From positions 18,636-82,635 of the forward strand of contig JAKEFM010000284.1 in the NCBI GenBank assembly GCA_022616055.1: a stretch of DNA of 64,000 nt, in the 5' to 3' direction. Source of the stretch: Planctomycetota bacterium (GTDB lineage: Bacteria; Planctomycetota; UBA1135; JAKEFM01). The stretch's first letter is position 1; each line of letters begins with the position of its first letter. Shown here piece after piece: positions 1 through 55,656 of this stretch. The position numbers and the translations under genes were made by a program. Under the pieces are notes generated by a model. It made no database searches and was not told the DNA's origin. It worked only from the letters and a program-made list of their open reading frames with translations.

Positions 1-364
1 CTGGAAGGGGGAGGCCCACTTCCTCGGAGTCGCGGCGATGGCCATGCGGCGCGTGCTCGTCGACCACGCGCGCGCCAAGAAGGCCGAGAAGCGGGGCGGC
101 GGGCGGGAGCGGGTCGAGCTCGACGCCGAGCTCCCGCTCGACCTCGGCGAGGAGATCGACCTCGTCGCCCTCGACCGGGCGCTCGAGGAGCTCGCCGCGC
201 GCTCCGAGCGCCAGGTCCGCGTGGTCGAGCTGCGCTTCTTCGGAGGGCTCGACATGAAGAAGGTCGCCGAGACGCTCGGCATCGCCCTGCGGACGGCGGA
301 GGAGGACTGGCGCGTCGCGCGCGCCTGGCTCTCCTGGCGGCTGCGCCGCGAGGTCGAGGGATGA
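1..364 (+). CDS. ECF-type RNA polymerase sigma factor, C-terminal part (5' end lies outside the window)
   Basis: The frame is open from base 2 with no start in the window. Translation WKGEAHFLGVAAMAMRRVLVDHARAKKAEKRGGG...VVELRFFGGLDMKKVAETLGIALRTAEEDWRVARAWL is the linker plus sigma-70 region 4 HTH of an ECF sigma. The TGA overlaps the kinase ATG (ATGA at 361-364). Confidence 0.85.
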   Translation, partial: WKGEAHFLGVAAMAMRRVLVDHARAKKAEKRGGGRERVELDAELPLDLGEEIDLVALDRALEELAARSERQVRVVELRFFGGLDMKKVAETLGIALRTAEEDWRVARAWLSWRLRREVEG

Positions 365-7478: not shown

Positions 7479-10439
7479 ATGGCCCCGGATCCCCTCCCCG
7501 CCCGGCCGGAGATCCTCCTCGCCAATGCCGACTGGGTGCGGGCGCTCGCCCGGAGCCTCGCGAGCGACTCCGCGGAGGCCGACGACCTGGAGCAGGAGAC
7601 CTGGCTCGCGGCCCTCGACCACCCGGCCCCCACGGGCGGACGGCTCCGACCCTGGCTCGTCCGGGTGCTGCGCAACCTCGTGCGGAAGAGGCGTCGAACC
7701 GACCTCCGCCGGAAAGCGAGGGAGGAGGCCTCCGCCGGACCCTCCCCTCCCGGCGATCCCGCGGCGCTCGTCGAGCGGATCTCGATTCAGCAAGACGTCG
7801 TCCGGACGGTGGTCGCCCTCGACGAGCCCTATCGGTCCACGCTCCTCCTCCGGTACTTCGAGGGGCTCGAGATCGGCGAGATCGCACGCCGCCAGAGGAT
7901 CCCCCACGCCACGGTCCGGCAGCGACTGAAGAGGGGGCGGGAGCGCCTCCGCGAACGGCTCCTCCCTCGCTATGGAGGTGATCGGGAGGCCTGGTCGGCC
8001 GCGATGCTGCGCCTCGCGGAAACGCTCCGACCGCACCCGGCGCCGCTCCCACCCGGGGTCCCGGTGCTCGCCGCCGCCGGGAAGAAGGTGGCGGTCGGGA
8101 TCGCCGCGACCCTCCTCGTCGGCGTCGTCGGCTGGAGGGCAGGGATCTTCCCCGTCGGGCCGCCCGCAAACCCGATCCCCCCGACACCCGTGGCGGAGGC
8201 CACGCCCTTCCCAGGGAACGAGCGGGAGACCGGGAGGTCGGCGGACGAGTCGAGGTCTCCGGGTGCCGTGCGACGTGCTGCGGTCGCGGCTTCGCCCGCG
8301 ACCGACGGAGGATCGGGAGACGCGACCGCGTCCGGCCGTCTCGTCGTCCGGGCGCGCTGGAGGGAGGACGGCAGGGCGGCGGAGGGAGTCGTGGCGGTGG
8401 TCGGGAGGCCGGGTTCGACGGACTCGTGGACGGCCTGCGCGGAGACCGACGATCGAGGTGAGGTCCACTTCGTGCGCCTCCTCGCCGGTCGGTTCCGGGC
8501 TGCCCTCTGGGGGGGCGAGGAGGAGGAGGTGCTCGTGGCCGGAGGGGAGGAGGTCCGCGTGGAGTTGTCGGTCCCGCGCGGATTCGCGGTCGTGGGACGC
8601 GTCGTCGACCAAGGAGAGAGAGGCGTCCCCTCGGCCGATCTCTGGCTCTCGGCTCCCGAGAATTCCCGGCTCGGACTCGTCGTCTGCAAGACGGACGAGT
8701 CGGGAGGGTTCCGCCTCCCGTTCGTGACGGTGGACCAGTTCATCGGGGCGCGTGCCGCCGGGAAGCCCCCTTCCTACCTGCAGTCCGTCCGCGGCCGACC
8801 GGGGGACGAGGTCCGGATCCGGATCGTCCTCGAAGATTCCACGGCCCGGCTCGCGGGGAGCGTCTTCGACGGCTCCGGGGCTCCCGTCGCGGGTGCGTCC
8901 GTCGCCGTCACCGACCCGGACCGGAACTCGACCGTCCTGCTCTTCGACGGTCGAGGGACCCGCAATCCGCCGCCGCAGTGGAAGGTGACGGACGGAAGCG
9001 GAGCGTTCCGGTTCGACTCCCTCGCGCCGAGGCGCCTGCTCCTGGTCGTCTGGGCGCGGGGATTCGGCCTGTTCCGCAGGGTGATGGAGGCGCCCTCCAC
9101 GGACGAGGAGGAGGTCCGCGTGACGCTCGAGCCGGAGGCGCGGGTGTCGGGTCGCGTGACGGACGACCGCGGCCGCCCTGTCGCTCGCGCGAGGGTGGAG
9201 CGGATCGGGCCCGAGTCCATCTCTCGGTCGAGCGTGACCTCGGACGAAGACGGACGGTTCGAGCTCGCCGACCTCCCCGCCGAGGAGGCGACCTTCACGG
9301 CCCGCCACGATCGCCTCGGATTCGCCCTCGTCCGGCTGCGGCCGGAGGCGGGTCGGACGAAGGAGTGGAACCCGGTCCTGGCGAAGGAGGGGGGGCTCTC
9401 CGGCGACCTCGCCGACGCGTCGGGCCGTCCGCTCGGGGGCTGGTCGATCACCGTCCGGGACCCCTCGGAGCGCGATGCGCGAGAGACGGTTGTCCAGACC
9501 CGCTCGGACGGGTCGTTCTCCGTCCCGCTCCCGCCGGAGGGGCGACTCGAGATCCAGGCCTGCGCGCCCGGGGCCTGGACGGAGTTCCCGGCGCTCGTGC
9601 GACGCGACGTCGATCCCGACGCCGGCCCGATCCACCTCGTCCTCGCCGAACCGGATCGCACGTTCGGCCGGATCCTCGGGGCCGTCGCCGACCCCGAGGG
9701 GAAGCCGTCGGACGACGCGCTCGTGAGCGTCGACTCTCCCGGCTCGGCCCTGTGGCGGGGGTTCGTCCCCGAGGCCGGGACCGGCCGATTCGAGATCGAA
9801 CGGGTTCCTCCGGGACCCTGCCTCGTGGAAGTGCGCCCCCGCGAGTTCCCCTGGGTGTCCCTCGGTTCGCTCGAGGTCCGGGCGGGCGAGGTCGTCGACG
9901 TCGGGGCGGTCCGCCTCCGGCGGGGAGGAACGCTGAGCGGCGAGATCACTGGCGCCGCGGAGGCGTCGCTCGCGACCCTCGAGATCGAGCTCGCCGCCGA
10001 GGAATGGAAGGCTGCGAGGCCCGTCAGCCGGACCGGCAAGCGATTCTGGACGGGAAGCCTCGCCCCGGGCCGCTATCGACTCTCGGTCCGAGGAGACGGC
10101 CTCTGGAGCGAGGGGGCCGAGTGCGAGGTCGAGGAGGGGCTCGCGAAGCGAGTCGAGATCGCGGTCGAGCGCGCGGGTCTCCGGCGGGCGCTCTTCGAGC
10201 TCCCGCCCGACGCGACCCGGCCCGGTTGGCTCTGGTGCGAGGTCTACCGGGACGAGGAGCCGATCTGGGTCTGGGGCATGGAACCTTCGCCCTGGCGCGC
10301 GCCGGAGGCCCGGATCTCCGTCCCCCCCGGCGTGTATCGCCTCCATGCGGGGACGGACACCGGCCTCTCCTACGAGGGGCCGCTCGAGATGGGGGCCGCC
10401 GGCGAGGAGGGACCCTCGCTCTCCGTCCCTCTGCGCTAG
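7479..10439 (+). CDS. ECF sigma factor fused to a TM helix and a ~700 aa extracytoplasmic CarboxypepD_reg-like repeat array (copy 1)
   Basis: 986 aa from ATG 7479; the track start at 7299 adds an R-rich, non-protein-like leader. Sigma region 2 reads DDLEQETWLAALDH...WLVRVLRNLVRKRRR. Region 4 reads LDEPYRSTLLLRYFEGLEIGEIARRQRIPHATVRQRLKRGRERL. The TM helix is KKVAVGIAATLLVGVVGW. At least five G-x-V-x-D-x-x-G-x-P motifs follow (GRVVDQGERGVPSADLWL, GSVFDGSGAPVAGASVAV, GRVTDDRGRPVARARVER, GDLADASGRPLGGWSITV, GAVADPEGKPSDDALVSV). Confidence 0.8.
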   Translation: MAPDPLPARPEILLANADWVRALARSLASDSAEADDLEQETWLAALDHPAPTGGRLRPWLVRVLRNLVRKRRRTDLRRKAREEASAGPSPPGDPAALVERISIQQDVVRTVVALDEPYRSTLLLRYFEGLEIGEIARRQRIPHATVRQRLKRGRERLRERLLPRYGGDREAWSAAMLRLAETLRPHPAPLPPGVPVLAAAGKKVAVGIAATLLVGVVGWRAGIFPVGPPANPIPPTPVAEATPFPGNERETGRSADESRSPGAVRRAAVAASPATDGGSGDATASGRLVVRARWREDGRAAEGVVAVVGRPGSTDSWTACAETDDRGEVHFVRLLAGRFRAALWGGEEEEVLVAGGEEVRVELSVPRGFAVVGRVVDQGERGVPSADLWLSAPENSRLGLVVCKTDESGGFRLPFVTVDQFIGARAAGKPPSYLQSVRGRPGDEVRIRIVLEDSTARLAGSVFDGSGAPVAGASVAVTDPDRNSTVLLFDGRGTRNPPPQWKVTDGSGAFRFDSLAPRRLLLVVWARGFGLFRRVMEAPSTDEEEVRVTLEPEARVSGRVTDDRGRPVARARVERIGPESISRSSVTSDEDGRFELADLPAEEATFTARHDRLGFALVRLRPEAGRTKEWNPVLAKEGGLSGDLADASGRPLGGWSITVRDPSERDARETVVQTRSDGSFSVPLPPEGRLEIQACAPGAWTEFPALVRRDVDPDAGPIHLVLAEPDRTFGRILGAVADPEGKPSDDALVSVDSPGSALWRGFVPEAGTGRFEIERVPPGPCLVEVRPREFPWVSLGSLEVRAGEVVDVGAVRLRRGGTLSGEITGAAEASLATLEIELAAEEWKAARPVSRTGKRFWTGSLAPGRYRLSVRGDGLWSEGAECEVEEGLAKRVEIAVERAGLRRALFELPPDATRPGWLWCEVYRDEEPIWVWGMEPSPWRAPEARISVPPGVYRLHAGTDTGLSYEGPLEMGAAGEEGPSLSVPLR

Positions 10440-10786
10440 ATCCCGACGCGAAGCTCGAGACCGTTGCTCGCCGTGACGAGGAACGGGGCGGCCGGATCGA
10501 GGAGGGCGGCCTGGAGGTAGAGGCTCGCGTTCGCGAGCACGGCCAGGATGGGAATCGGAATCGGGATGTCGACCGTCCCGGCGCCCGCCACGCCCGGAGC
10601 GCCGAGCTTCGTGAACGGGAGGAACGAGAGGAGCCCAGAGACGTAGCTCGTCATCCCGGGGACGGGAGTATCCGGGAAGGCGGCCTCGGCCGTCCCCACG
10701 GCGAGGAGGGCCGGTGCGCCGCCGAGCCCGCGCCGCAGCCGGACCGCGGCGGTCGTCGAGCCGGGACGGAGCGGCCCGGTCGCGCC
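10436..10786 (-). pseudogene. Orphan fragment encoding only the shared exoprotein C-terminal module (no passenger domain, no signal peptide)
   Basis: The minus-strand translation ...GLGGAPALLAVGTAEAAFPDTPVPGMTSYVSGLLSFLPFTKLGAPGVAGAGTVDIPIPIPILAVLANASLYLQAALLDPAAPFLVTASNGLELRVGI* aligns with the C-termini of the genes ending at 12855, 15011, 30086, 44764 and 49144. The upstream part of ORF 10436..10981 is R/S/P-rich and overlaps the start of the next gene. Confidence 0.45.
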
Positions 10787-10968
10787 TCGGACCGGCCCCG
10801 ACTCTACTGCCGAGGGGGACCGGGCGGAACCCGTCCCGGATCGAGGAGGAAGGGGGCACGCTTGACGGCTCCGAACCTCGACGGATAGCGTCAGCCGTGA
10901 ACGCGGATCCAAGAGAAGACCGGTTCGGGGGGAGGGCCCGCGTGAGTCCCGTTGTGTGAGGTGACGAC

Positions 10969-41223: not shown

Positions 41224-41517
41224 CTACGGGACACGGATCAGTTCCTTCTCGATCACCTCCCAGTTCCGGGCCTTGATGGCTCTCCGGGAGACGAGATCCG
41301 TCCGCACTCCCAGCAGATCCTCGATCTCCTCGGCGAGGTCGACGAATCGGAGACCGATCGACGGATCGACGTCGACGATCACGTCCACGTCGCTGTCCTC
41401 GCGCTGCTCTCCCCGCGCGTACGACCCGAAGAGGGCGAGTCGCCGGACGCCGAACCGCCTGGCCAGCTCCGGCTTGGCTTGCGCGAGGAGCCGGAGGATC
41501 TCCTGCGTCGCCTTCAC
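41224..41517 (-). CDS. Minimal nucleotidyltransferase (MNT-type antitoxin-like), no adjacent HepT/HEPN partner
   Basis: The NTase motif is RRLALFGSYARGEQREDSDVDVIVDVD. I prefer the GTG 41517 start (97 aa, the typical MNT size); TTG 41568 is the alternative. Confidence 0.75.
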   Translation of the reverse strand: MKATQEILRLLAQAKPELARRFGVRRLALFGSYARGEQREDSDVDVIVDVDPSIGLRFVDLAEEIEDLLGVRTDLVSRRAIKARNWEVIEKELIRVP

Positions 41518-42007
41518 TGGGAGTCGGAGTGCTCCACCTGGTCGCTCGACCGGATCCCTCGCCTCCAAACGCCGCGGGGCACCCCGGTCGAGCCTCCGCC
41601 CCGGAGCCCGCGGGCTGCGCGAGCTGCGTCCTCCCCGGGGTCAGCCAAGGAGCGATCGCTCGCGAGGAACGCGAAGGGGCGGCTCGGGAGATCCATGGTC
41701 GGACGAGGGGTCCGGTCTCGAGCCGGGATTATGCCGGAGACGGCCGGATTCCGGGGGGCCGGCGGTTTCGCGCGGATTCCCTCGAGGCCATGGAGCGAGC
41801 GCCGCGGCCGCAGCGCCAGGACACCCCGCCTCGCCGGAGCGTGCGGATCCGCGCGGCTCCTTCGACGGCATGGGCGTTGCCCCAGCTCCTTCGCTGGTCC
41901 CGCGCGGCGTTTCCGCGAAACCTCCCGCGCTCCGCCGGCCCCCGGGCGGATCGACGCGGGTCCCCTCGCGCGCGTCCGCTCCTTCCACCGAGGTCGGAGA
42001 TTCGCCC

Positions 42008-44764
42008 ATGAAGAAGACATTTTTCGCCTCCGCGGCGCTCTCGATCGCGTGTGGCGTCGCCTCCGCTCAGGCCCCCGTCCTCTCGCCCCTCCAGTTCCTC
42101 CCCGGCGACGGGACGATCGGGCCGGCCGCGGGAGAGCAGCGTGCCCCCACGCTCGTCCCCGGCGGGACCGGGTTCCTCGCCGTCTGGGAGGACGCGCGGA
42201 CGGACCTCGTGCCGAACTACCTCGCCGACCAGGGTGGCTTCGACGTCTACGCGTCGCGGCTCGACGCCCTCGGGACCCCGATCGACCTCCTCCCGATCGT
42301 CGTCTCCGAGGCGTTCGGCGACCAGGAGCGCCCGCGCGCCGCGTGGAACGGCCAGGACTGGCTCGTCGTCTGGACGAACCAGGAACCGATCGGCTCCTTC
42401 TACGGGCCCGCGATCCGCGCCGCGCGCATCTCCGCGGCGGGAGTGTTCCTCGACGCCACCTCGATCCTCCTCCCCGTCCCCGCGAACATCGGGGAAGACC
42501 TCCTCTTCGGCGTCGCGAGCGACGGAAGCAACTGGCTGGTCGTCTGGAAGGACTTCGTCGGACCCACCGCCGTGATCCGGGGCTCCCGGATCTCCCCGCT
42601 CGGGACGCTGCTCGACACGACCCCGGTGACGCTCGCCACCGTCCCGAGCCAGGCCTACCACGGCGAGGTCGTCTTCGGTCACGGCGCCTACCTCGTCGTC
42701 TGGAACCACTGGACGGGGTCGGGGAACGACGACGTCTTCGGTCGGCGCTTCACCCCGGCCCTCGCGCCGCTCGGGGGGATGTTCCCGATCGCGGCCGACG
42801 ACGACTACGACGTGTGGCCCTCGGTCGCCGTCGGCCCCGCCGGGTTCTTCGTCGCCTGGGAGAACTACAACTCCTGCTGCGTCGGAGGCGGCGGAAAGGT
42901 CTTCGGCGCCCGCCTCAGCCCGACCGGACAGGTCCTCGATCCGGCGGGGATCCTGATCTCGGCGACGACCGACTTCACCACCGGGCGCACCCCCTCCGCC
43001 TGCGCCGACGGCTCGCAGTGGTACGTCACCTGGACCTACGAGTCCGGGACCGCGTTCCAGCAGCTGCACGCCGCGCGCGTGTCGGGAGCGGGAGCGGTCC
43101 TCGATCCGGGGGGCTTCCTCGTCCAGCCGACGGGCTCCGCGCAAACCGAGTCGGCGGTCGGCGCGGCCCCCGGAGGCGGAGCGGTCGTCGCATGGACCGA
43201 CGACCTCGCCGGAGGGGTCGATCCGTACGACGTCTTTTCGGCGCCGCTGACCTCGGGCGGAGGGGCGGGGACCGCGAACAGCGTGACGCTCGGCGCGCCG
43301 GCCCAGGTCCGCCCGCGCCTGGCGTGGACGGGGAGCGACTACCTCGCCGTCTTCGTGAGCCGCGTCTCGGGGAGCAACCGGATCCTCGGCCAGCGCCTCG
43401 ACGCCTCGGGGAACGCGATCGACGCGGTCCCCTTCGAGATCGCGGGGCCGAGCGCGGCGCTCCGCTCCCCCGCGGTCGCCTGGGACGGGAGCGAGCACAT
43501 CGTCGTCTGGAGCGAGGGCTCGGTCGTCCTCGGGCGGCGCCTCGACGCGGCGGGGACGCCCCTCGATCTCGCCCCCTTCTCGATCATGCCCGGGGCCGCT
43601 CCCGACGTCTCCGCGCTCGGCGGGGACTTCCTCGTCGTCGCCACGCACGCGCCGTCGAACCCGCAGTTCCGCTTCACCTTCGCGGCGCGGGTGCGAGGCT
43701 TCGACGGGCTCGTGCTGGATCCGACGCCCCTCCAGCTCGGCCAGTACTTCGCCGTCGCCCCGAAGGTCGCGGCCTTCGGGACGCAGTGGATCGCCGTCTG
43801 GGAGAGACACTTCTCCCACGACGATCCGCACGCGAACGTCCACGCGGCATTCGTGACCGCGGCGGGGACGAGCCCCGGGGAGTTCGCGATGACCGGCGGA
43901 TCGGTCTTCCACAACGCCGCGGCGGTCGCGTCGGACGGGGCGAGCGCCCTCGTCGCGTGGGCCGACAACACCCCGAGCATCCAGAGCGCGAACCTCTCCG
44001 CCCGCCGCGTCCTCCCGAACGGGTCGATGCTCCCGATCCTCACCCTCAACGCCGCCGCGAATGTGCAGGCCTACCCCGCCCTCGCGTGGGACGGCGGCGA
44101 GTTCGTCGCGGCGTTCGAGGACCACCGGAACGCGGCCCTCTTCTTCGATCTCCGCGGCGACCTCTACGGCGCGAGGCTCGATGCGGCGGGGACGGTCCTC
44201 GATCCGGCGGGCTTCGCCGTCGCCTCCGGGGCGCCGCCCCAGATGAACCCCGCCGTCGCGGGCGGGCCGACCGGGAGCGCGGCCCTCGCCGGGGCTCAGT
44301 TCGGCTCCGGCTCGCCGTACGCCTCCTACCGCGTGGGGCTCAGGATCCTCGACCCGCCGAGCCCGTGCGCCGGCTCGTTCGTCGCCTACGGGTCCGGACT
44401 CCTCGGCACGGGAGGATTCGTCCCGGCTCTGGCCGGGACCGGATGCCCGACGATCGGCTCCACGATCGGTTGGACGGTGGCGAACGGGCGAGGCGCCGCG
44501 CCGGGCCTCCTCGCCTACGGGGCCTCTCCGGCCTCGATCCCGTTCTTCGGGGGGACGGCGCTCGTGACTCCGCTCCTCTTCGTCCCCTTCACGCTTGGCG
44601 GGACTCCCGGGGAGGCCGGGGCGGGCTCGACCTCCTTCGCGATCGCGATCCCGAACAACCCCGCCTTCGCCGGGACCGTCCACTACACCCAGGGGGTCGT
44701 CCTCGATCCGCTCGCGCCCCAGGGTCTCGCCTTCACCGCGGGCCTCGAGACGCACGTCGAATGA
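42008..44764 (+). CDS. Secreted protein built from ~14 copies of a ~55-aa W-x-D/aromatic repeat, with the shared C-terminal module
   Basis: 918 aa from ATG 42008. Signal peptide MKKTFFASAALSIACGVASAQA. Repeats of the form ...P-x-(V/A)AW(D/N)G-x-x-(W/Y)L(V/A)VW...(Y/F)GAR(L/I)...G-x-x-LD-x-x-G-(F/I)... occur, e.g. RPRAAWNGQDWLVVWTNQ, SPAVAWDGSEHIVVWSEG, YPALAWDGGEFVAAFEDH...LYGARLDAAGTVLDPAGFAV. The C-terminus is ...AIAIPNNPAFAGTVHYTQGVVLDP...GLETHVE. Confidence 0.85.
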   Translation: MKKTFFASAALSIACGVASAQAPVLSPLQFLPGDGTIGPAAGEQRAPTLVPGGTGFLAVWEDARTDLVPNYLADQGGFDVYASRLDALGTPIDLLPIVVSEAFGDQERPRAAWNGQDWLVVWTNQEPIGSFYGPAIRAARISAAGVFLDATSILLPVPANIGEDLLFGVASDGSNWLVVWKDFVGPTAVIRGSRISPLGTLLDTTPVTLATVPSQAYHGEVVFGHGAYLVVWNHWTGSGNDDVFGRRFTPALAPLGGMFPIAADDDYDVWPSVAVGPAGFFVAWENYNSCCVGGGGKVFGARLSPTGQVLDPAGILISATTDFTTGRTPSACADGSQWYVTWTYESGTAFQQLHAARVSGAGAVLDPGGFLVQPTGSAQTESAVGAAPGGGAVVAWTDDLAGGVDPYDVFSAPLTSGGGAGTANSVTLGAPAQVRPRLAWTGSDYLAVFVSRVSGSNRILGQRLDASGNAIDAVPFEIAGPSAALRSPAVAWDGSEHIVVWSEGSVVLGRRLDAAGTPLDLAPFSIMPGAAPDVSALGGDFLVVATHAPSNPQFRFTFAARVRGFDGLVLDPTPLQLGQYFAVAPKVAAFGTQWIAVWERHFSHDDPHANVHAAFVTAAGTSPGEFAMTGGSVFHNAAAVASDGASALVAWADNTPSIQSANLSARRVLPNGSMLPILTLNAAANVQAYPALAWDGGEFVAAFEDHRNAALFFDLRGDLYGARLDAAGTVLDPAGFAVASGAPPQMNPAVAGGPTGSAALAGAQFGSGSPYASYRVGLRILDPPSPCAGSFVAYGSGLLGTGGFVPALAGTGCPTIGSTIGWTVANGRGAAPGLLAYGASPASIPFFGGTALVTPLLFVPFTLGGTPGEAGAGSTSFAIAIPNNPAFAGTVHYTQGVVLDPLAPQGLAFTAGLETHVE

Positions 44765-48603: not shown

Positions 48604-49032
48604 TTGGATCCCGTCGCCCTCGTCCTGGTCTTCGTCGTCCTCGCGGTCCTCATCCGCGTCGCTGCGGGGAGCTTCGACAAGGAGCGGATCGAGAGGTACG
48701 TCGAGGAGCGCGGCGGACGGGTGATCAGCATCTCCTGGGCGCCCGTCGGCAAGGGGTGGTTCGGCGAGCGGAACGACCGTCTCTACGAGGTGGTCTACTA
48801 CGATCGAAAGGGAGACCAGCGCTTCGCGACCTGCAAGACGAGCCTCTTCTCCGGGGTCTACTGGACGGACGATCGCGTTTCCCACCATCGCCCCGAGGAG
48901 CTCGGCGGGCCACCGGGAGGTGCGGCCGACGACGAGGCGCGGCAACTGCGCGAGGAGAACTCGAAGCTGCGGGAGGAGCTGCGGCGGATCCGCCGCGAGC
49001 ACGACGAGAAGCTGCCCCCGCCGCAAGGGTGA
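48604..49032 (+). CDS. Hypothetical N-terminally anchored protein with a C-terminal coiled coil
   Basis: 142 aa from TTG 48604. The TM helix is VALVLVFVVLAVLIRVAAG, the globular part is YEVVYYDRKGDQRFATCKTSLFSGVYW, and the coiled coil is ARQLREENSKLREELRRIRREHDE. Confidence 0.6.
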   Translation: MDPVALVLVFVVLAVLIRVAAGSFDKERIERYVEERGGRVISISWAPVGKGWFGERNDRLYEVVYYDRKGDQRFATCKTSLFSGVYWTDDRVSHHRPEELGGPPGGAADDEARQLREENSKLREELRRIRREHDEKLPPPQG

Positions 49033-49143: not shown

Positions 49144-51765
49144 TCAGAGATTGGTCACGGTCGTGACCTCGAGATTCGTGAACCGGAGCGGCGGCCCGAC
49201 CACGGCCTGCCAGAAGAGCGACTGGCCGACGAGGGCGGGGTTCGCGGGGACCGGGAACGTGACGCTCGCGCGCCCCTGCAGGTCGAGGACGCCTCCCGCG
49301 ACGAAGAACAGAGTCGGGGGGAAGAGTCGGAGCGTGCCGAACGGAGGCAGGGGAATGCTCGCGTTCCCCGCCGACGCGGCGAGGAGCCACGTTCCGTTCG
49401 CGGGTCCGTCCACGTCCAGGCTCAGAGGCTTCCCCATCCGCGGGATCCCGCGCCAGGAGGATTGCCGGGCCAGGTTCGTGTAGAGGCGTTCCGGACCCCA
49501 TGCCCCGACGAAGGCGTCGAAGTCTCCGTCCCCATCGACGTCGCCGAGCGCGACCGCCTGGGGGGTGTCCATCAGGAACGGCAGCGCCGTCATCGGCGCG
49601 GGCAAGAAGGCGCCGGTCCCTCCGTTCAAGTGCAGGAGAAGCTCCCCGGCGGTGCCGTAACCCCCGATCGCCGCCAACGCATCGAGGTCGCCGTCCCCGT
49701 CGACGTCCCCGAGCGCGACCGCCGCCGTCGGATCGACATTGGCTGAGAGGTTGGTCGTCGTGAAGACTCCCGTGCCCGCGTTGAGGAGGAGCCGATCCTG
49801 CCCGTCCTTCCCGACAACCGCGTCGAGGTCGCCGTCCCCGTCGACATCTCCGAGCGCGAGGGCGCTCGTGGATCCGGGAAGGGCGGGCAGGCTACCCGCG
49901 GTGACGTCCGCGAAGGAGCCGGTGCCGCTGTTCAGGAGCAAGCGGTCCGCTCCCGCCACATAGCTCCCCACGAGCGCATCGAGGTCGCCGTCCCCGTCCA
50001 GGTCTCCGAGAGCGACGGCCCGCGTGTCGCCGAGGACGCTGGGCAGGTTCCCCAACGTGGCATCCGTGAACTGTCCTCCGCCGGTGTTCCGAAGGAGGCG
50101 ATTCTGGATGCCCGGGCATCCGGCGCATTGCGACCCTTTCCCCACGAACCCGTCCAAGTCGCCGTCTCCGTCCAGGTCTCCGAGAGCGACCGCCCTCGTC
50201 GGCTCGAGCTCGGACGCGAACGGGAGGTTCGAGGCCGTGACGTCCGTGAAGACCCCGTTCCCCGCGTTGGAATACAGCTCGGTCAGGTCCGAGTAGAGGG
50301 GATTGCCCGTGTTGGCCCTTCCGAGGAGGACGTCCAGGTCCCCGTCGCCGTCCACGTCGCCGAGCGCGATCGAGAGGGTCTGGCCGTTCAGTCCCGGGAG
50401 GTTCGTCGCGGTGACGTCCGCGAACAATCCCCCGTCGCCGCGGAGGTAGAGACGGTCCTGCCCCGAGTTTCCCGCGAAGGCGTCGAGGTCTCCGTCCCCG
50501 TCGAGGTCGCCGAGGGCGACCGTCCACGTCTGGCCCTGGCGGAACCCGACGATCGTCGACGTGACGTCTGTGAAGGTCCCGTTGCCGTTGTTCAGGAGGA
50601 GGCGGTCTTCGCCCCGCGCCGGCGCGGCCGGGAAGAACAGGAACGAGGATTCGACGGCGTTCCCGATGAACGCGTCGAGGTCCCCGTCGCCGTCGACGTC
50701 TCCGAGAGCGACCACCGCCGTACGGTCGAGCAGGACGGGAAGGTTCGTCGTCGTGGCGTCGGTGAAGACCCCCGTCCCGCCGTTCAGGAAGAGCCGGCTC
50801 TGCCCGCTGGGCGGCGTGTTGGGACCGCCGGAATCCGCCACGAGCGCGTCGAGGTCGCCGTCCCCGTCCACGTCCCCGAGGGCAATGGATGTCGTGAGGG
50901 TCGGCGCGGCGGGGAGATTCGTCGCCGTCACGTCGGCGAAGACCCCCGTCCCGGCGTTGAGGTACAGGCGGGTCTGCCCGGGAGGACCCGTCGCAGGGCC
51001 GGACACTCCTAAGAACGCGTCGAGGTCGCCGTCCCCGTCCACATCCCCGAGGGCGACCACCGAGCTGCCGCCAGGAGGCAGGTTGATCCCCGTGACGTTC
51101 GTGAAGACCCCCGTCCCGCCGTTGAGGTAGAGAAGGGTCTGGCTCCCACCCCCGATGAACGCGTCGAGGTCGCCGTCCCCGTCCACGTCCCCGAGGGCGA
51201 CCGCCGAGCCGCCGGCAGGAGGGACGTTGATCGCCGTCGCGTCCGTGAAGACCCCCGTCCCGCCGTTGAGGTAGAGCCGGTTCTGGCCCCCGCTCCCAAC
51301 GAACGCGTCGAGGTCGCCGTCCCCATCGACGTCCCCGAGGGCCACGGCATACGAATAGTCGCCCTGGACGGGGAGGTTGGTCGCGGTCGCGTTCAGGAAG
51401 ACTCCTCCCCCTCCATTCAGGAAGAGCTGGTCCTGGCCCGAGTTCGCGACGAATGCGTCGAGGTCGCCGTCCCCGTCCACGTCCCCGAGGGCGACCGCTC
51501 CCGAACCGCTCTGCCAGACCGAGACGACGAGCGGCGAGAGGTCCGTGAAGACTCCCGCGCCGTCGTTCAGGCAGATGCGGGGCGGATCAGGGGCGGTCGC
51601 TCGGAACTGGTCGAGGTCGCCGTCCCCGTCGAGGTCCCCGAACGCGACGGCCGTCGACAGGTCCCTGTCGGGCGGGAGCATCTGGTGCGTGAGACCGAAC
51701 CGCTGGGCCCAGACGGGGGCTGCCGACCCGAGAAGCGCGGACGCGAAAAAGACGCGACGCCGCAT
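49144..51765 (-). CDS. Secreted 14-repeat VCBS/FG-GAP-like protein with the shared C-terminal module
   Basis: 873 aa. RBS AAGGAGG. Signal peptide MRRRVFFASALLGSAAPVWA. There are 14 copies of (V/A)ALGD(V/L)DGDGDLDAF...LYLNGGTGVFTDVT. The C-terminus is ...VTFPVPANPALVGQSLFWQAVVGPPLRFTNLEVTTVTNL. Confidence 0.9.
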   Translation of the reverse strand: MRRRVFFASALLGSAAPVWAQRFGLTHQMLPPDRDLSTAVAFGDLDGDGDLDQFRATAPDPPRICLNDGAGVFTDLSPLVVSVWQSGSGAVALGDVDGDGDLDAFVANSGQDQLFLNGGGGVFLNATATNLPVQGDYSYAVALGDVDGDGDLDAFVGSGGQNRLYLNGGTGVFTDATAINVPPAGGSAVALGDVDGDGDLDAFIGGGSQTLLYLNGGTGVFTNVTGINLPPGGSSVVALGDVDGDGDLDAFLGVSGPATGPPGQTRLYLNAGTGVFADVTATNLPAAPTLTTSIALGDVDGDGDLDALVADSGGPNTPPSGQSRLFLNGGTGVFTDATTTNLPVLLDRTAVVALGDVDGDGDLDAFIGNAVESSFLFFPAAPARGEDRLLLNNGNGTFTDVTSTIVGFRQGQTWTVALGDLDGDGDLDAFAGNSGQDRLYLRGDGGLFADVTATNLPGLNGQTLSIALGDVDGDGDLDVLLGRANTGNPLYSDLTELYSNAGNGVFTDVTASNLPFASELEPTRAVALGDLDGDGDLDGFVGKGSQCAGCPGIQNRLLRNTGGGQFTDATLGNLPSVLGDTRAVALGDLDGDGDLDALVGSYVAGADRLLLNSGTGSFADVTAGSLPALPGSTSALALGDVDGDGDLDAVVGKDGQDRLLLNAGTGVFTTTNLSANVDPTAAVALGDVDGDGDLDALAAIGGYGTAGELLLHLNGGTGAFLPAPMTALPFLMDTPQAVALGDVDGDGDFDAFVGAWGPERLYTNLARQSSWRGIPRMGKPLSLDVDGPANGTWLLAASAGNASIPLPPFGTLRLFPPTLFFVAGGVLDLQGRASVTFPVPANPALVGQSLFWQAVVGPPLRFTNLEVTTVTNL
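49520..51640 (-). repeat. Tandem coding repeats (about 150-190 nt units) inside the VCBS gene
   Basis: A nucleotide-level near-identical core, GCGTCGAGGTCGCCGTCCCCGTC(C/G)ACGTC(C/T)CCGAG(G/A)GCGAC, recurs about 14 times on the plus strand. It is the antisense of the ALGDVDGDGDLDA codons. Confidence 0.85.
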
Positions 51766-51802: not shown

Positions 51803-51828
51803 GACGCCTCCGCGGGACGGAAGGTTCC
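51803..51828 (-). promoter_or_regulatory. ECF-type promoter GGAACC-N16-CGTC upstream of the VCBS exoprotein gene
   Basis: The minus strand reads cacgaGGGAACCttccgtcccgcggaggCGTCggaccc. The -35 GGAACC is at 51828-51823 and the -10 CGTC at 51806-51803, with an exactly 16-nt spacer. It lies about 37 nt upstream of ATG 51765, and the AAGGAGG RBS falls in between. Confidence 0.5.
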
Positions 51829-51955: not shown

Positions 51956-54900
51956 TCAGCGGCGGATCGAGACCTCGACCCGCTCGCGCGGCTTCACGAC
52001 GACCGGGACGCGGCGCGAGAGATCCTCGCGCTGGTCGGCCGCGGGCGGGCCGTCCTTCCGGAGGTCTCGCTGCACGCAGGCCTCGTAGGAGCCCGGCAGG
52101 ACGTCCGGGAAGAGAACGCGGTCCTCCGGAATCCGGTCGCGGAAGAGGATCGCCTCGCGCCGCGGGAGATCTCCCTCCTTCGGGATCAGGACGACGCGCG
52201 AGGTCTCATCGTCCCCGAGGTCGAACGAAGGGTCGAGGCTCACCTCGACACTCCCATGCACGGGCACGACGATTCTCGCTTCGGGAATCCGAGGAGAGTG
52301 AGCCACGTCGTAGGTCCGCCCGCCGACGCGGGCTTGGATCACGACGTCGTCGGCCGGGAGGCCGGACAGCTCGTAGCGGCCCTCGTCGAGTGGCCTCACC
52401 CCGATCACCAGCCCACCGAGGATCCTCACTTGCGCGGACGTCGGTCTTCCTTCCTCGTCCTCGACGCTGACGACGACCTGGTGGCCGCGAGTCAGCCGGA
52501 ACTCGAGCGGGGTGCCGTCCTCCGGAATCCGGAGGTCCTCGAACGCCCTCGCGACGAATCCGACGCTGGAGATCGTCACGCGGGCTCTGTCCGCGTAGAG
52601 CTTCTCCATCCGGAAGGACCCCGTCGCGTCCGTCTGAACCCCGGCGCCGAACGGGCGGATCTCGACCCTCACCTGAGCACCGGCGAGGGGCCGGCCCTCT
52701 TCGTCGAGCACCCTCCCGCGGAAGTCCCTCGGTCGCGTCCGGATCACCGCTTCCACCACCCGCGTCTCGAACTCGCCGAGGGGAGGGAGCTCCCTCTCCT
52801 CCACGACGAAGCCGCACCAGTCGAGGACCCGGAGCGTCAGCGGAAGCGAAGGTCGGAGGGAACAGAGGCGCGCACGGCCGGCTCCGTCGGGAGAGAAGGT
52901 CCTCGTCCCTCCTCGGGCGTCGACGCTTTGACTCTGGGACCGGCTCGCGCCCGCCGCCACGTGCGCCTTGGCGGGATTCCAACCCCCCCCGCCCGCGAAG
53001 AAGGGCTCCCGGGAGAACAGGGCGACGTCGAGCTCCGGCGGGACGCCTCCCTCAGGGGTGCGGAGGAGGACCTCGAGCATGTTCGAAGACGGGAGGGTGA
53101 CCACGAGGGGCGCGTTCATTGCCGCCGGAACGGGGACCTCCACGGCCGCGTAGCCGAGGGCCCCGACGACGATCCGCGACACGTCGAAGCTCGCGCCGCG
53201 AAGGAGGCCCCGGCCTTCCGCGTCGGTCGGCACGCTCTTTCTTTCCTCGTCGTCGTCCGGGAGAGCCACGGCGTTCTCGACGGGCCGACCCGACGGGTCG
53301 CGCACGACGAAGTGGAGGTCGCGGGTCGTCGCGAGCTCCACGTCGCCGAGGTCCCATCCCGGAGGAAGCTCCGCCCGCTCGAAGGGGATCGATCGGTGGC
53401 CGCGGCCATCCTTCCCGGAGACCGTCACGATCCCCCGACGAAAACCCTGGTAGATGCCGGAGATCGGGACGCGGAAGCGCCCCTTCTCGTCGGCGGTGCC
53501 GCCGACCAGGGCTTCCATCCTGAGGGTGTCCTTCTCGCCGACGATCGTCAGGGATGCCTGCACGACGGGGTTCGGCACGGGTTCCCTTCCCCCCGGCTCG
53601 ACGACGCGGCCGACGAGCGCTGGAACTCGCACGAGTTCGATCCTCAGGCCCTCGACGGGCGCGCGGAAACCGAGGGTTTGTCCTCCACCCGACGCGGTCT
53701 CGTAGCCGAACGGCAGATCGAGGCTTCCGCTCCAGTCCTCCGGCAGACCGGCGAAGCGGAAGGCCCCGCTCTCGTCCGTCCCCTGCGTGAGCCCCGCCGG
53801 CCCGCCCGGATCGTGACCGAGGCTGGCCCAGGCCGAATCGGGGATCCCTTCCACACGCAGGAGCGCGCGTTCCGAAGAGAGCGAGAGCCCGAGCGCCTCC
53901 TCCGGCGCGCGGCCGTCGACGAGGATCCACCCGGAGACCGCGGCACCCTCGTCCAGGACGACCTCCCGGCGACCCGGCGAGAGCACGATTCCCTCCAGAT
54001 GAGGCGCCGTCGCCGGCGCGATCGCGAGGAGCGTCGCGGCCTCTCCGTTGCCGGGGACGGCGATCTCGCCTCGCTCGTTCGCCGCCCCGGCGAAGAGGAT
54101 CTTCTCGCCGGCGAAGACCGCCGCCTTCGCCCCCGGGACAGCGCGCCGGTGGGAGTCCACGAGGGTGAGGACGGCGTGGGCCCTGGGCGCGAATTCGGTC
54201 CTCCGGGTCGCGCCGTCCGCGGGATCCGCGACGGGGGACTGCGAGACCGTTTTTCCGGTGGATCCAGGGACGGTGGAGTCGAGGCCCGGCGCGGTCGAGA
54301 CGAGACCGGTCCCCGGCGAAGACCCGAGCCAGAGGTACCCGGATCCCCCCGCGGCGAGGAGGACCCCGACGAGGGCAACTTTCTTGGTCATCGCAGTGAC
54401 TCCGATAGAAACGGCCGCCGTACCCATGGAACCCGACAGCCCGGCGACCGTCGCCGGGAACGCGCCCTCAGCATGTCGGAGGACCTGCGCGCGGATCGCG
54501 GCGAGCCCGCGCGAGGGCGCGAGACAGAGGACGGAGCCGACCGCGAAGCTCGGGGGGAGCGCTTTCCGGAGGAGCTTCAGCCCACGGTGGATCCGCACGT
54601 GGGCCGCGTTGAGCGAGATCCCGAGCGCCGAGGCGATCTCGCTCGGGCTCCTCCCCTCGACGAGGTACTCCCGGATCGCGCCGGAGTAGGTGGCGGGGAG
54701 CTCCTCCACGGTCTTCCCGAGCCTTTCCCGGAGCTCGCGCTCGGAGGCCTCCGCCAGCGGGTCGGGCGCCGCCCGCTCGGGCACCCGGGCGGGATCGGGC
54801 ACCCTCTCGGCGCGACGCCGCGCCTCCATCGCGCGGTGCGCGAGGATGCCGATCATCCAGGGGAGGAACCGGCGCTCGGGGTCGTACTGCGCGCGCTTCT

Positions 54901-55081
54901 CGATCGCCGCGAGGAAGGTCGCCTGGAGCGCGTCCTCCGCCTCGGCCTCGTCGCCGCAGAGGTGTCGCGCGATCCCGAGGAGCTCGGGCGCCGCGAGGTC
55001 GAACACCTTCCCGAGCGCCGAGACGTCCCCGCGCTCCTGGAATCGCCTGTAGAGCCGATCGAGCTTCCGGTCCTTCGTCAC
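51956..55081 (-). CDS. ECF sigma factor fused to a TM helix and a ~750 aa CarboxypepD_reg-like repeat array (copy 2)
   Basis: 1041 aa from GTG 55081; the track start at 55471 adds an R/P/G-rich leader. Sigma region 2 reads EAEDALQATFLAAIEKRAQYDPERRFLPWMIGILAHRAMEARRR. Region 4 reads LPATYSGAIREYLVEGRSPSEIASALGISLNAAHVRIHRGLKLLRKAL. The TM helix is KKVALVGVLLAAGGSGYLWLG. The repeats include GRVVEPGGREPVPNPVV, FVVRDPSGRPVENAVAL, GRVLDEEGRPLAGAQVRV and VSVEDEEGRPTSAQVRI. Confidence 0.8.
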   Translation of the reverse strand: MTKDRKLDRLYRRFQERGDVSALGKVFDLAAPELLGIARHLCGDEAEAEDALQATFLAAIEKRAQYDPERRFLPWMIGILAHRAMEARRRAERVPDPARVPERAAPDPLAEASERELRERLGKTVEELPATYSGAIREYLVEGRSPSEIASALGISLNAAHVRIHRGLKLLRKALPPSFAVGSVLCLAPSRGLAAIRAQVLRHAEGAFPATVAGLSGSMGTAAVSIGVTAMTKKVALVGVLLAAGGSGYLWLGSSPGTGLVSTAPGLDSTVPGSTGKTVSQSPVADPADGATRRTEFAPRAHAVLTLVDSHRRAVPGAKAAVFAGEKILFAGAANERGEIAVPGNGEAATLLAIAPATAPHLEGIVLSPGRREVVLDEGAAVSGWILVDGRAPEEALGLSLSSERALLRVEGIPDSAWASLGHDPGGPAGLTQGTDESGAFRFAGLPEDWSGSLDLPFGYETASGGGQTLGFRAPVEGLRIELVRVPALVGRVVEPGGREPVPNPVVQASLTIVGEKDTLRMEALVGGTADEKGRFRVPISGIYQGFRRGIVTVSGKDGRGHRSIPFERAELPPGWDLGDVELATTRDLHFVVRDPSGRPVENAVALPDDDEERKSVPTDAEGRGLLRGASFDVSRIVVGALGYAAVEVPVPAAMNAPLVVTLPSSNMLEVLLRTPEGGVPPELDVALFSREPFFAGGGGWNPAKAHVAAGASRSQSQSVDARGGTRTFSPDGAGRARLCSLRPSLPLTLRVLDWCGFVVEERELPPLGEFETRVVEAVIRTRPRDFRGRVLDEEGRPLAGAQVRVEIRPFGAGVQTDATGSFRMEKLYADRARVTISSVGFVARAFEDLRIPEDGTPLEFRLTRGHQVVVSVEDEEGRPTSAQVRILGGLVIGVRPLDEGRYELSGLPADDVVIQARVGGRTYDVAHSPRIPEARIVVPVHGSVEVSLDPSFDLGDDETSRVVLIPKEGDLPRREAILFRDRIPEDRVLFPDVLPGSYEACVQRDLRKDGPPAADQREDLSRRVPVVVKPRERVEVSIRR

Positions 55082-55302
55082 GCCTCTACTGGACGGAAGG
55101 GACGGCAACCTTACACGGGATCCTCCCGGGGGAGCCCCTCCGCGAACCGTCTCCCCCTCCCGGGGAGGGCGCCTCGCCCTTCTTCCAGGCGCCGGCCGAC
55201 GGGACCGTACGCGAGCCGCGAGGGGAAGAAGTCCCACTCCGTGTAACCCTCCGGCGTCCTTAGGGGAGGGAGAGCCCGGTCGCCGGGTGGGACCCGGTCG
55301 GA

Positions 55303-55656
55303 GTGAAGTCGAAGGCGAGGGAGAATCTGGAGGCTGCGCGACGGCTTTTCGCGCTCGGGCTGCTGAACGCGGCCGCGAGCCGCCTCTACTACGCGGTTTT
55401 CCAGGCCGCCGTGCACGCGCTCCTCCGCCGCAGCGGATCGCCGGCCGATGCGCGACGAGGGGCACGGGCATGGAGCCATGGGAGAGTCGAAGGCCTGGTC
55501 GGAGGGATCCGGGGGCAACCCGAGGATCAGGTCCTGTTCCAGGAACTCAGGGCGCTACGGGAGTGTGCGGATTACGATCGCGAGTCCGTGACCAAGCGGG
55601 AGATCGACCGATGTTGGCCCGACGCGGAGCGGTTCGTACGGCGGGTGACGTCGTGA
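55303..55656 (+). CDS. HEPN domain protein
   Basis: 117 aa from GTG 55303: KSKARENLEAARRLFALGLLNAAASRLYYAVFQAAVHALL...ELRALRECADYD...DAERFVRRV. This matches the HEPN pattern (an A-x-x-x-Y-Y-A helix plus R-x-x-A-D-Y). Confidence 0.75.
   Translation: MKSKARENLEAARRLFALGLLNAAASRLYYAVFQAAVHALLRRSGSPADARRGARAWSHGRVEGLVGGIRGQPEDQVLFQELRALRECADYDRESVTKREIDRCWPDAERFVRRVTS

What the first reader, a model, noticed from the sequence alone, without database searches (positions are those of the whole stretch)
51956..55081. Second, divergent paralog of the sigma-TM-CarboxypepD_reg fusion, 41 kb away
The order is the same: ECF region 2, region 4, a ~60-aa linker, KK-initiated TM helix (KKVALVGVLLAAGGSGYLWLG) and a repeat array. 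Sequence identity to copy 1 is low. Two diverged copies argue that the fusion is a maintained functional architecture and not an assembly artefact. Like copy 1, this gene is immediately followed in the same orientation by a gene for a large secreted repeat protein carrying the shared C-terminal module (49144-51765).
Basis: partly seen in the sequence, partly recalled or inferred. Interest (0 to 1): 0.7.

Follow-up and report, generated by a model that had tools for sequence, protein, structure and literature searches.

The report
Membrane-anchored ECF sigma factor, Ig-like ectodomain
This gene encodes a real, widespread but uncharacterised type of bacterial transcription switch: an ECF sigma factor joined by one membrane helix to a long chain of Ig-like domains outside the cell membrane. 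It is a variant of a known kind, and its supposed partnership with the neighbouring secreted-protein gene is not conserved.

Summary
ORF 51956-55081 (-) encodes a 1041-aa protein, identical to GenBank MCI0589289.1 from a Planctomycetota MAG. It has a complete ECF sigma domain, a 57-aa linker, one TM helix, a disordered stalk and about 8 beta-sandwich domains.

The architecture is not an artefact. A profile of the sigma part plus its conserved motif (LP-x14-RGLAAVR) finds 2,117 50%-identity clusters at E<=1e-30. The best 150 match the whole profile and are mostly 800-1220 aa.

- Copy 1 belongs to a different sigma clade with a different linker. Its sigma domain resembles copy 2 no more than stand-alone ECFs from other phyla do.
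- Chimeras (P0019, P0108) show that sigma and ectodomain modules reassort.
- The "fusion then exoprotein" gene order is absent from the closest syntenic relative and from about 18 other loci.

New findings:
- Against that relative, identity drops sharply at residue ~200 (dS 0.11 before, 0.62 after).
- Ectodomain dN/dS is 0.5-0.7, against 0.12 for the sigma domain.

Most likely function: a one-protein sensor and sigma factor released by regulated proteolysis. This step is inferred, by analogy with IutY and SCO4117. I file it as a new variant of a known kind, of moderate interest.

The parts
51956..55081 (-). CDS of the sigma-TM-ectodomain protein (1041 aa, GTG start; GenBank MCI0589289.1)
54803..54991 (-). 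ECF sigma region 2 (residues 31-93)
   Evidence: Pfam PF04542, 46.4 bits. Invariant AED..Q.TF and PW in the family alignment. The PDB profile matches SigW, SigE and SigH.
54569..54727 (-). ECF sigma region 4 (residues 119-171)
   Evidence: Pfam PF08281, 35 bits
54461..54559 (-). Conserved cytoplasmic juxtamembrane extension (residues 175-207): invariant L175 P176, then R191 G192 L193 A A x R, forming an amphipathic helix at 193-207
   Evidence: Invariant columns in A1. The motif is present in 50 of 58 relatives. AF2 predicts a helix with pLDDT 85-89. No PDB sigma or anti-sigma sequence aligns beyond residue ~180.
54470..54490 (-). Identity breakpoint against the syntenic relative L001 (residue ~200)
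   Evidence: Nucleotide identity is 0.88-1.00 before the breakpoint and 0.47-0.8 after it. dS is 0.11 for residues 1-176 and 0.62 for the ectodomain (255-1041).
54323..54385 (-). Lys-Lys plus single transmembrane helix (residues 233-253)
   Evidence: Hydropathy; AF2 helix 231-246
54185..54322 (-). Ser/Thr/Pro/Gly-rich disordered stalk (residues 254-299)
   Evidence: pLDDT <50 over residues 245-298
51959..54184 (-). Ectodomain: about 8 tandem Ig-like / CarboxypepD_reg-type beta-sandwiches (residues 300-1041)
   Evidence: AF2 predicts an all-beta region, mostly at pLDDT >85. Foldseek matches pilin, CnaB and macroglobulin-type Ig arrays. Pfam PF13620 matches residues 788-863. The family HMM finds units at 488-576, 587-664, 783-866 and 865-935.
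49144..51765 (-). Downstream FG-GAP repeat exoprotein (873 aa). It is adjacent here but the adjacency is not conserved. The C-terminal module lies at 49150-49443.
51803..51828 (-). GGAAC-N17-CGTC, an ECF-promoter-like site 38 nt upstream of the FG-GAP start. This is a lead only.
   Evidence: The pattern is not enriched in the window (6 found, 6.6 expected). It is retained in L002.
7479..10439 (+). 'Copy 1' (986 aa, MCI0589259.1): same architecture, different sigma clade and linker motif, 7 or more contiguous CarboxypepD_reg units

Best explanation
The gene encodes a one-protein envelope sensor and transcription factor. The N-terminal, cytoplasmic half is a complete ECF sigma factor (sigma2 plus sigma4). 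It is followed by a family-specific conserved juxtamembrane helix (LP-x14-RGLAAVRxxVL). One N-in/C-out transmembrane helix and a ~45-aa disordered stalk connect it to about eight Ig-like beta-sandwich domains in the periplasm.

Tethering to the membrane, possibly helped by the conserved helix, keeps the sigma domain from working freely. A periplasmic or surface cue acting on the ectodomain leads to cleavage outside the membrane. An RseP-type site-2 protease then cuts within the membrane, releasing the sigma domain to bind RNA polymerase.

The sigma module is conserved. The sensor module (distal linker, TM helix and ectodomain) evolves fast and is exchanged between lineages and between sigma clades.

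Shown: the domain order, its conservation, the selection pattern and the module reassortment. Inferred: the topology, the inactive tethered state, the proteolytic release and the nature of the signal.
For: Architecture.

Family-wide conservation. A single TM helix lies 216-270 residues in, and RGLAAVR is present in 50 of 58 relatives. Invariant columns are L175, P176, R191, G192 and L193. There are 2,117 50%-identity clusters at E<=1e-30, and the top 150 all cover profile positions 1-203.

A functional sigma domain. The profile aligns to solved SigW, SigE, SigH and SigL structures over both domains. dN/dS is 0.11-0.125.

A real, folded ectodomain still under some constraint. pLDDT is mostly >85 and dN/dS is 0.52 against L001.

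No separate anti-sigma gene is adjacent in the window or in relatives. This matches the published rule that C-terminal extensions correlate with the lack of an anti-sigma factor (PMC7826278).

Precedent for release by proteolysis. IutY is a sigma/anti-sigma fusion cleaved by Prc and RseP. The ECF52 member SCO4117 has a TM helix plus an extracytoplasmic carbohydrate-binding domain (PMC8999054, PMC5411451).

The TM helix contains the helix-weakening run AAGGSG (read directly from the sequence).
Against: - No proteolysis, topology or regulon data exist for any member.
- There is no recognisable anti-sigma domain between sigma4 and the TM helix. Pfam, NCBIfam and PDB matches all stop at ~176-180. 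It is therefore unclear how the tethered sigma domain would be kept inactive.
- The ectodomain has no identifiable ligand-binding or catalytic domain. Its high dN/dS (0.73 against the 89%-identical orthologue) could equally mean little constraint.
- TM hydrophobicity in this particular member is modest (Kyte-Doolittle 1.68).
- No site-1 or site-2 protease gene is linked to copy 2.
Confidence: 0.6

Rival explanations
1. The protein acts while it stays in the membrane, as ToxR and CadC do. The tethered sigma domain recruits RNA polymerase to nearby DNA, and the ectodomain modulates activity by oligomerisation or conformational change without any cleavage.
For: There is no anti-sigma domain that would need to be destroyed. 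The invariant juxtamembrane helix could transmit a conformational signal. The cytoplasmic linker is long (57 aa).
Against: I found no precedent for a sigma factor working while membrane-inserted in the papers I read. All described sigma-TM fusions are thought to be released (PMC8999054). A disordered 45-aa stalk transmits conformational changes poorly.
Confidence: 0.15
2. The extension is largely a by-product of duplication and fortuitous insertion of a sigma gene into or next to a gene for a CarboxypepD_reg repeat protein, the scenario proposed for planctomycetal ECFs in PMC7671368. In that case it has little or no sensing role, and the sigma domain is controlled in some other way, for example by Ser/Thr kinases.
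For: Sigma and ectodomain have different histories. Ectodomain dN/dS is 0.5-0.7. Extensions on the same sigma clade vary: CarboxypepD_reg arrays in most members, HEAT repeats in P0010, P0012 and P0013. Ser/Thr kinase genes are frequent neighbours.
Against: The sigma-linker-TM-ectodomain order is kept in 2,117 clusters, with an invariant linker motif and TM helix. dN/dS is below 1 and the reading frame is intact across 13-41% amino-acid divergence. The domains fold with high confidence.
Confidence: 0.1
3. This is the first reader's idea: the fusion and the downstream exoprotein with the C-terminal module form a functional unit. Either the sigma factor drives the exoprotein gene, or the exoprotein is the ligand or partner of the ectodomain.
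For: Both fusions in this genome are followed on the same strand by a module-bearing gene. My rough estimate for this is p~0.01, given 5 such genes among ~36. A GGAAC-N17-CGTC site lies upstream of the FG-GAP gene and is kept in L002. FG-GAP genes are adjacent to family members in the window, L003 and L085.
Against: L001 has the same flanking genes at 83-96% identity but no exoprotein after the fusion. Neighbours differ in every other locus. The promoter-like pattern is not enriched (6 found, 6.6 expected). A 190-nt gap separates the two genes.
Confidence: 0.15
4. Copy 1 and copy 2 are true paralogs descended from one ancestral sigma-TM-CarboxypepD_reg gene, and have simply diverged a long way.
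For: They share the same overall architecture and the same KK-initiated TM helix. Copy-2-family sigma domains score slightly better on the copy-1 HMM (median 89 bits) than generic ECFs do (72 bits).
Against: In the reciprocal test there is no excess (82 against 89 bits). The linker motifs differ. An ECF57-like third clade carries the same ectodomain type. The chimeras P0019 and P0108 show that modules move independently.
Confidence: 0.2

Closest known systems
IutY of Pseudomonas putida (ECF243), a sigma/anti-sigma hybrid of cell-surface signalling (PMC5411451, PMC8999054)
   Same: N-terminal ECF sigma domain, one TM helix and a periplasmic C-terminal part in a single polypeptide. The sigma domain is freed by site-1 (Prc) and site-2 (RseP) proteolysis.
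   Different: IutY has a FecR-type anti-sigma domain before the TM helix and a FecR periplasmic domain that talks to a TonB-dependent receptor. Here there is no anti-sigma domain, the ectodomain is an Ig-like array, and no receptor gene is linked.
ECF52/ECF48/ECF53 of Actinobacteria, e.g. SCO4117 (PMC8999054)
   Same: A sigma domain fused through 1-2 TM helices to an extracytoplasmic Pro-rich region plus a carbohydrate-binding domain. Activation by proteolysis has been proposed.
   Different: Those proteins carry a zinc-finger (ZAS-like) anti-sigma element, come from a different phylum and have much shorter ectodomains.
Planctomycetal ECFs with long C-terminal extensions (ECF57, with WD40 repeats and about 5.3 copies per genome; duplicated clusters described in PMC7671368 and PMC7826278)
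   Same: Same phylum, very long extensions, several copies per genome, and different histories for the sigma domain and the extension.
   Different: The ECF57-like hits (P0059-P0071) are only distantly related to copy 2 (E 1e-12 to 1e-5) and have their own conserved cysteines. I found no description of the RGLAAVR clade or of CarboxypepD_reg ectodomains in the searchable literature.
Classical ECF sigma plus single-pass anti-sigma pairs (RseA-sigmaE, RsiW-sigmaW)
   Same: The logic is the same: the sigma factor is held at the membrane and released by regulated intramembrane proteolysis after an extracytoplasmic cue.
   Different: Those are two proteins with non-covalent sequestration by an anti-sigma domain. 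Here the tether is covalent.
Membrane-bound one-component regulators (ToxR, CadC)
   Same: Cytoplasmic DNA-targeting module, one TM helix and a periplasmic sensor in one protein.
   Different: Those are winged-helix activators that act while tethered, not sigma factors.

Membership tests
ECF (group 4) sigma-70 factors | Sigma region 2 and region 4 present, with no region 1.1 or region 3 | tested here: met
   PF04542 and PF08281 score above their cut-offs and there is no r3 hit. TIGR02937 scores 68.8 bits, above its 42.9 cut-off. The profile aligns to solved ECF structures over residues 15-174.
ECF (group 4) sigma-70 factors | Binds core RNA polymerase and directs transcription from ECF-type promoters | not testable with these tools
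   The only indirect evidence is purifying selection on the sigma part (dN/dS 0.11-0.125).
Sigma/anti-sigma hybrid ECFs released by proteolysis (IutY type, ECF52 type) | Sigma domain, TM helix and extracytoplasmic domain in one polypeptide | tested here: met
Sigma/anti-sigma hybrid ECFs released by proteolysis (IutY type, ECF52 type) | Recognisable anti-sigma domain (FecR, ASD or ZAS) between sigma4 and the TM helix | tested here: not met
   No Pfam, NCBIfam or PDB match in residues 176-232. That stretch is only 57 aa and carries a family-specific motif.
Sigma/anti-sigma hybrid ECFs released by proteolysis (IutY type, ECF52 type) | Stimulus-dependent site-1 and site-2 cleavage | not testable with these tools
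   No experimental data exist. No protease gene is linked to copy 2. A tricorn-like S41 protease gene lies next to copy 1 only.
ECF57 (planctomycetal, WD40 extension) | Close sigma-domain similarity and the two conserved cysteines | tested here: not met
   ECF57-like hits P0059-P0071 reach only E 1e-12 to 1e-5. Their VCRR and LC(Y/C)LEG cysteines are not conserved in the copy-2 family. Formal assignment needs the ECF Hub HMMs, which are not available here.
CarboxypepD_reg (PF13620) repeat proteins | Pfam match above the gathering score, with a transthyretin/Ig-like sandwich fold | tested here: met
   93.7 bits against a 32.3 cut-off; an all-beta model and Ig-array fold matches
Conserved two-gene unit 'fusion + exoprotein with C-terminal module' | The same gene order in related genomes | tested here: not met
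   It is present only in the 89%-identical L002. It is absent from syntenic L001 and from about 18 other loci.
Whole-gene paralogy of copy 1 and copy 2 | Sigma domains closer to each other than to unrelated ECFs, and collinear ectodomains | tested here: inconclusive
   Cross-HMM scores are 82 against 89 bits (no excess) in one direction and 89 against 72 bits (small excess) in the other. The ectodomains share only repeat-level HSPs. The linker motifs differ.

The most novel reading that the evidence does not exclude
The RGLAAVR clade would be a very large, undescribed class of self-contained membrane-inserted ECF sigma factors that need no anti-sigma domain. Their sensor halves (TM helix plus Ig-like array) would be exchanged as cassettes by recombination at the conserved juxtamembrane joint. 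That would let Planctomycetota quickly re-tune what each sigma factor senses, for example fast-changing surface cues such as phage, prey or polysaccharides. Neighbouring FG-GAP exoproteins would be facultative regulon members.
Probability: 0.2. Interest if true: 0.65.

Novelty: new variant of a known kind. Interest (0 to 1): 0.37.

Why it matters
ECF sigma factors are a major route of bacterial signal transduction, and Planctomycetota carry dozens per genome with mostly unknown regulation. This locus belongs to a family of more than 2,000 sequence clusters in which sensor, membrane anchor and sigma factor are one polypeptide with no recognisable anti-sigma domain. If release by proteolysis is confirmed, it would give a minimal one-component ECF switch. 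It would also explain how these bacteria regulate many orphan ECFs. The sharp sensor/sigma identity breakpoint offers a concrete, testable case of modular sensor exchange.

Tried and rejected
- **Longer ORF (ATG 55471) or TTG 55108 as the start: rejected.** The longer ORF overlaps the HEPN gene, homology to L001 begins 45 nt upstream of the GTG, and the TTG is not conserved.
- **Sequence search of the ectodomain against PDB:** no hit at E<=1.
- **Literature for sigma plus CarboxypepD_reg:** nothing relevant. The supplements of the ECF classification paper are not held, so no ECF group number could be assigned.
- **ECF-type promoter search:** GGAAC-N16-18-CGTC gives 6 hits against 6.6 expected. 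The sigma-70 and terminator scan found nothing useful. The exact shared 17-base motif at 55080-55100 and 51804-51824 was derived from those two sites themselves, so its significance is only my rough estimate. It is partly lost in L002.
- **Genome-collection scan:** the back-translated pattern was generic (AED..Q.TF). Most of the 80 loci were therefore ordinary ECFs, and I used them as controls.
- **First FG-GAP regular expression:** it missed the window's own gene and was rewritten.
- **Conserved protease, transporter or anti-sigma neighbour of the copy-2 family:** none found.
- **Not spent:** the third large protein search, which could have been used on the C-terminal module.
Full report
**1. 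What is there**

The window is 70-75% G+C. The minus-strand ORF 51956-55081 shows the codon-position GC pattern of real genes here (GC3 0.85). It translates to 1041 aa, identical in sequence and start to GenBank MCI0589289.1, annotated 'MAG: sigma-70 family RNA polymerase sigma factor [Planctomycetota bacterium]'.

The GTG 55081 start is sound:
- ENA and JGI orthologues are called from the same start.
- Nucleotide homology to the JGI locus L001 begins only ~45 nt upstream of it.
- The in-frame upstream extension to 55471 runs antisense through a HEPN gene at 55303-55656.

Domain evidence:
- Pfam gives Sigma70_r2 (residues 31-93), Sigma70_r4_2 (119-171) and CarboxypepD_reg, all above their cut-offs.
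- NCBIfam gives the generic ECF model TIGR02937 above its cut-off and no specific equivalog.
- A family profile aligns to solved SigW, SigE, SigH and SigL structures over residues 15-174 and to nothing beyond ~180.

**2. Anatomy beyond the sigma domain**

The one hydrophobic segment after the sigma domain is TKK-VALVGVLLAAGGSGYLWLG (residues 233-253, Kyte-Doolittle 1.68).

An AlphaFold2 model built on a 50-sequence alignment (mean pLDDT 82.4) gives these regions:

| Residues | Prediction |
|---|---|
| 1-175 | helical sigma domain |
| 193-207 | confident helix (pLDDT 85-89) |
| 231-246 | low-confidence TM helix |
| 245-298 | disordered Ser/Thr/Pro/Gly stalk |
| 300-1041 | all-beta, about eight sandwiches, mostly pLDDT >85 |

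Foldseek against the PDB matches tandem Ig-like arrays (pilins BcpA and PitA, the TIE protein, SdrD B repeats, macroglobulin MG domains). It matches M. tuberculosis SigE for the N-terminus.

Pfam recognises only two CarboxypepD_reg units in copy 2, and a family-trained HMM recognises four. Copy 1 has seven contiguous units. The 'repeat array' is therefore real, but much of it is visible only as fold. I saw no catalytic or known ligand-binding domain.

**3. The architecture is a family trait**

The first protein search returned 58 proteins with the same Pfam composition and length, mostly from Planctomycetota MAGs. In 50 of them the motif RGLAAVR lies at ~190. All have a single hydrophobic helix at 216-270, usually preceded by Lys/Arg.

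In an alignment of 23 N-terminal regions the invariant columns include the sigma signatures (AED..Q.TF, PW). They also include L175, P176, R191, G192 and L193, with A194, A195, R197 and A204 nearly invariant. The ~30-aa post-sigma4 extension is thus as conserved as the sigma core.

That profile, run against 1.84 billion cluster representatives, finds 2,117 proteins at E<=1e-30. The best 150 (all E<1e-68) cover positions 1-203 and are mostly 800-1220 aa.

On the same sigma clade some members carry HEAT repeats instead of CarboxypepD_reg arrays, among them the cultured Engelhardtia mirabilis protein P0012.

**4. Is copy 1 a paralog?**

Copy 1 (7479-10439 +, MCI0589259.1) has the same layout, and its own family is larger still: 321 or more hits, nearly all sigma plus CarboxypepD_reg. 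The evidence for whole-gene paralogy is weak:
- Pairwise similarity to copy 2 is limited to 31% over 118 aa of sigma and to single-repeat HSPs.
- Its post-sigma4 motif is different (..GGDREAWSAALL..), and only 1 of 120 copy-1 hits has RGLAAVR.
- On a copy-2 sigma HMM, copy-1-family sigmas score a median of 82 bits, stand-alone ECFs of ~135-240 aa (measured from the match to the stop codon) from other phyla score 89, and copy 2's own family scores 228.
- The reverse test shows only a small excess, 89 against 72 bits.

Modules also reassort:
- P0019 combines a copy-1-type sigma (45% identity, E 9e-32) with a copy-2-collinear ectodomain (32% over 685 aa, E 1e-49).
- P0108 is the reverse combination.
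- ECF57-like sigmas (P0063, P0065, P0071) also carry a TM helix plus CarboxypepD_reg arrays.

This matches the published conclusion that planctomycetal ECF cores and C-terminal extensions have separate histories (PMC7671368). 'Two copies of a maintained architecture' is right. 'Divergent paralog' is not shown.

**5. Synteny**

L001 carries the 64%-identical orthologue P0003 and shares the flanking genes:

| Flanking gene | Amino-acid identity |
|---|---|
| DUF4331 | 96% |
| Aldehyde dehydrogenase | 96% |
| CN hydrolase | 96% |
| 536-aa gene | 83% |

In L001 the fusion is followed directly by the 142-aa gene on the opposite strand. Upstream lie an internally deleted FG-GAP remnant (175 aa), a PMT_2 glycosyltransferase gene and a duplicated 74-aa fragment of the aldehyde dehydrogenase gene. 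L002 (89% orthologue) has FG-GAP genes on both sides. The locus is therefore a rearrangement hotspot.

The downstream neighbour differs every time, across 13 family loci from species-representative genomes and 6 further contigs. Examples are Band_7, HxlR, a Ser/Thr kinase, DUF502 plus Clp_N, and succinate dehydrogenase. About half lie on the opposite strand.

The C-terminal module ends five window proteins and one remnant ORF, so adjacency is less surprising than it looked. Two points keep a facultative link open:
- Both fusions in this genome show the adjacency (my rough estimate, p~0.01).
- FG-GAP genes abut family members in 3 of 14 independent loci.

A GGAAC-N17-CGTC site lies upstream of the FG-GAP gene, but that pattern is not enriched in the window.

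**6. Evolutionary pattern inside the gene**

Window against L001:
- Sigma domain: 97% identical, dS 0.11, dN/dS 0.125. This is similar to neighbouring genes, which have dS 0.12-0.26.
- From residue ~200, right after RGLAAIRAQVLRHA, nucleotide identity falls from ~0.95 to 0.47-0.8.
- In the ectodomain dS rises to 0.62, amino-acid identity is 59% and dN/dS is 0.52.

The divergent tract continues through the adjacent 142-aa gene (dS 0.52) and fades near 48340. A six-fold jump in dS points to import of a divergent allele by recombination, with one crossover in the conserved sigma/linker region, rather than to faster protein evolution alone.

Against the closer L002, dS is uniform (~0.1), yet the ectodomain has dN/dS 0.73 against 0.11 for the sigma domain. 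The ectodomain is therefore weakly constrained or diversifying, but its dN/dS is below 1, it is intact and it is well folded.

**7. Mechanism**

The best-supported reading is a covalent version of the sigma/anti-sigma logic. The sigma domain is held at the membrane and sensing happens outside. Release would be by site-1 and then site-2 proteolysis, as shown for IutY and proposed for ECF52/SCO4117 (PMC8999054, PMC5411451).

- **Shown here:** composition, conservation, the selection pattern, the absence of a separate or embedded anti-sigma domain, and the absence of conserved partners.
- **Inferred:** N-in/C-out topology (the Lys-Lys pair on the cytoplasmic side), inactivity while tethered, cleavage, and the signal.
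- **Unknown:** the role of the invariant amphipathic helix 193-207. It could be a minimal inhibitory element, a membrane-surface helix or a protease or degradation determinant.

**8. Verdict**

The gene is a member of a very large but uncharacterised clade of membrane-anchored ECF sigma factors. That makes it a new variant of a known kind (ECFs with TM-containing C-terminal extensions), not a new category. The new points are the conserved juxtamembrane motif, the size of the clade, the documented reassortment of sigma and sensor modules, and the sharp breakpoint. Interest is moderate (0.37).

Noticed in passing
window 10969-12855 (+), 12945-15011 (+), 30086-31801 (-), 41273-44764 (+), 49144-51765 (-); remnant ORF 10436-10981 (-); weaker hits L008:13164-15689 (-) and L012:4954-6147 (+): A ~100-aa C-terminal module ends five otherwise unrelated secreted proteins: FG-GAP proteins, an esterase, a NIDO-like protein and a protein with no Pfam match. 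Its pattern is ..IP.(D/N)P.L.G....Q.....(F/L)T......, and it has no Pfam or NCBIfam match. A 181-aa remnant lies antisense between copy 1 and its downstream gene. It looks like an undescribed sorting or anchoring domain of this Planctomycetota lineage.
   Followed up: partly
window 38-364 (+) and 361-3726 (+): A Sigma70_ECF-type sigma gene, truncated by the window edge, overlaps by 4 nt a Ser/Thr kinase gene with a TM segment and WD40 propellers. This is the classical planctomycetal ECF-kinase pair, and a third ECF regulatory style within 64 kb.
   Followed up: partly
window 3986-7354 (-): A tricorn-like periplasmic protease (PD40, Tricorn_C1, PDZ_Tricorn, Peptidase_S41) is transcribed divergently from copy 1. 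S41 proteases (Prc, CtpA) are site-1 enzymes for IutY-type factors. Two copy-1 relatives (L086, L087) do not have this neighbour.
   Followed up: partly
window 55303-55656 (+); L001:7194-9925: A lone HEPN gene sits directly upstream of copy 2. In L001 and L002 the same position holds an FG-GAP gene or remnant, a PMT_2 glycosyltransferase gene and a duplicated 74-aa fragment of the aldehyde dehydrogenase gene found 5 kb away. This marks an insertion and rearrangement hotspot.
   Followed up: partly
window 55080-55100 (-) and 51804-51824 (-): The 17 specified bases CCTTCCGTCC-N4-GAGGCGT occur exactly twice. One copy ends in the GTG start of copy 2. The other lies 38 nt upstream of the FG-GAP start, where it overlaps a GGAAC-N17-CGTC ECF-promoter-like site. 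Its meaning is unknown.
   Followed up: partly
window 48604-49032 (+) versus L001:13186-13614: The small 142-aa membrane protein gene next to the variable tract is also unusually divergent between otherwise near-identical loci: 65% amino-acid identity and dS 0.52, against 0.12-0.26 for its neighbours.
   Followed up: no
L013:4204-7902 (+): In another Planctomycetota MAG, a 1232-aa protein with a CarboxypepD_reg array lies immediately upstream of a family fusion on the same strand. It could be a tandem second fusion or a donor for ectodomain exchange.
   Followed up: no
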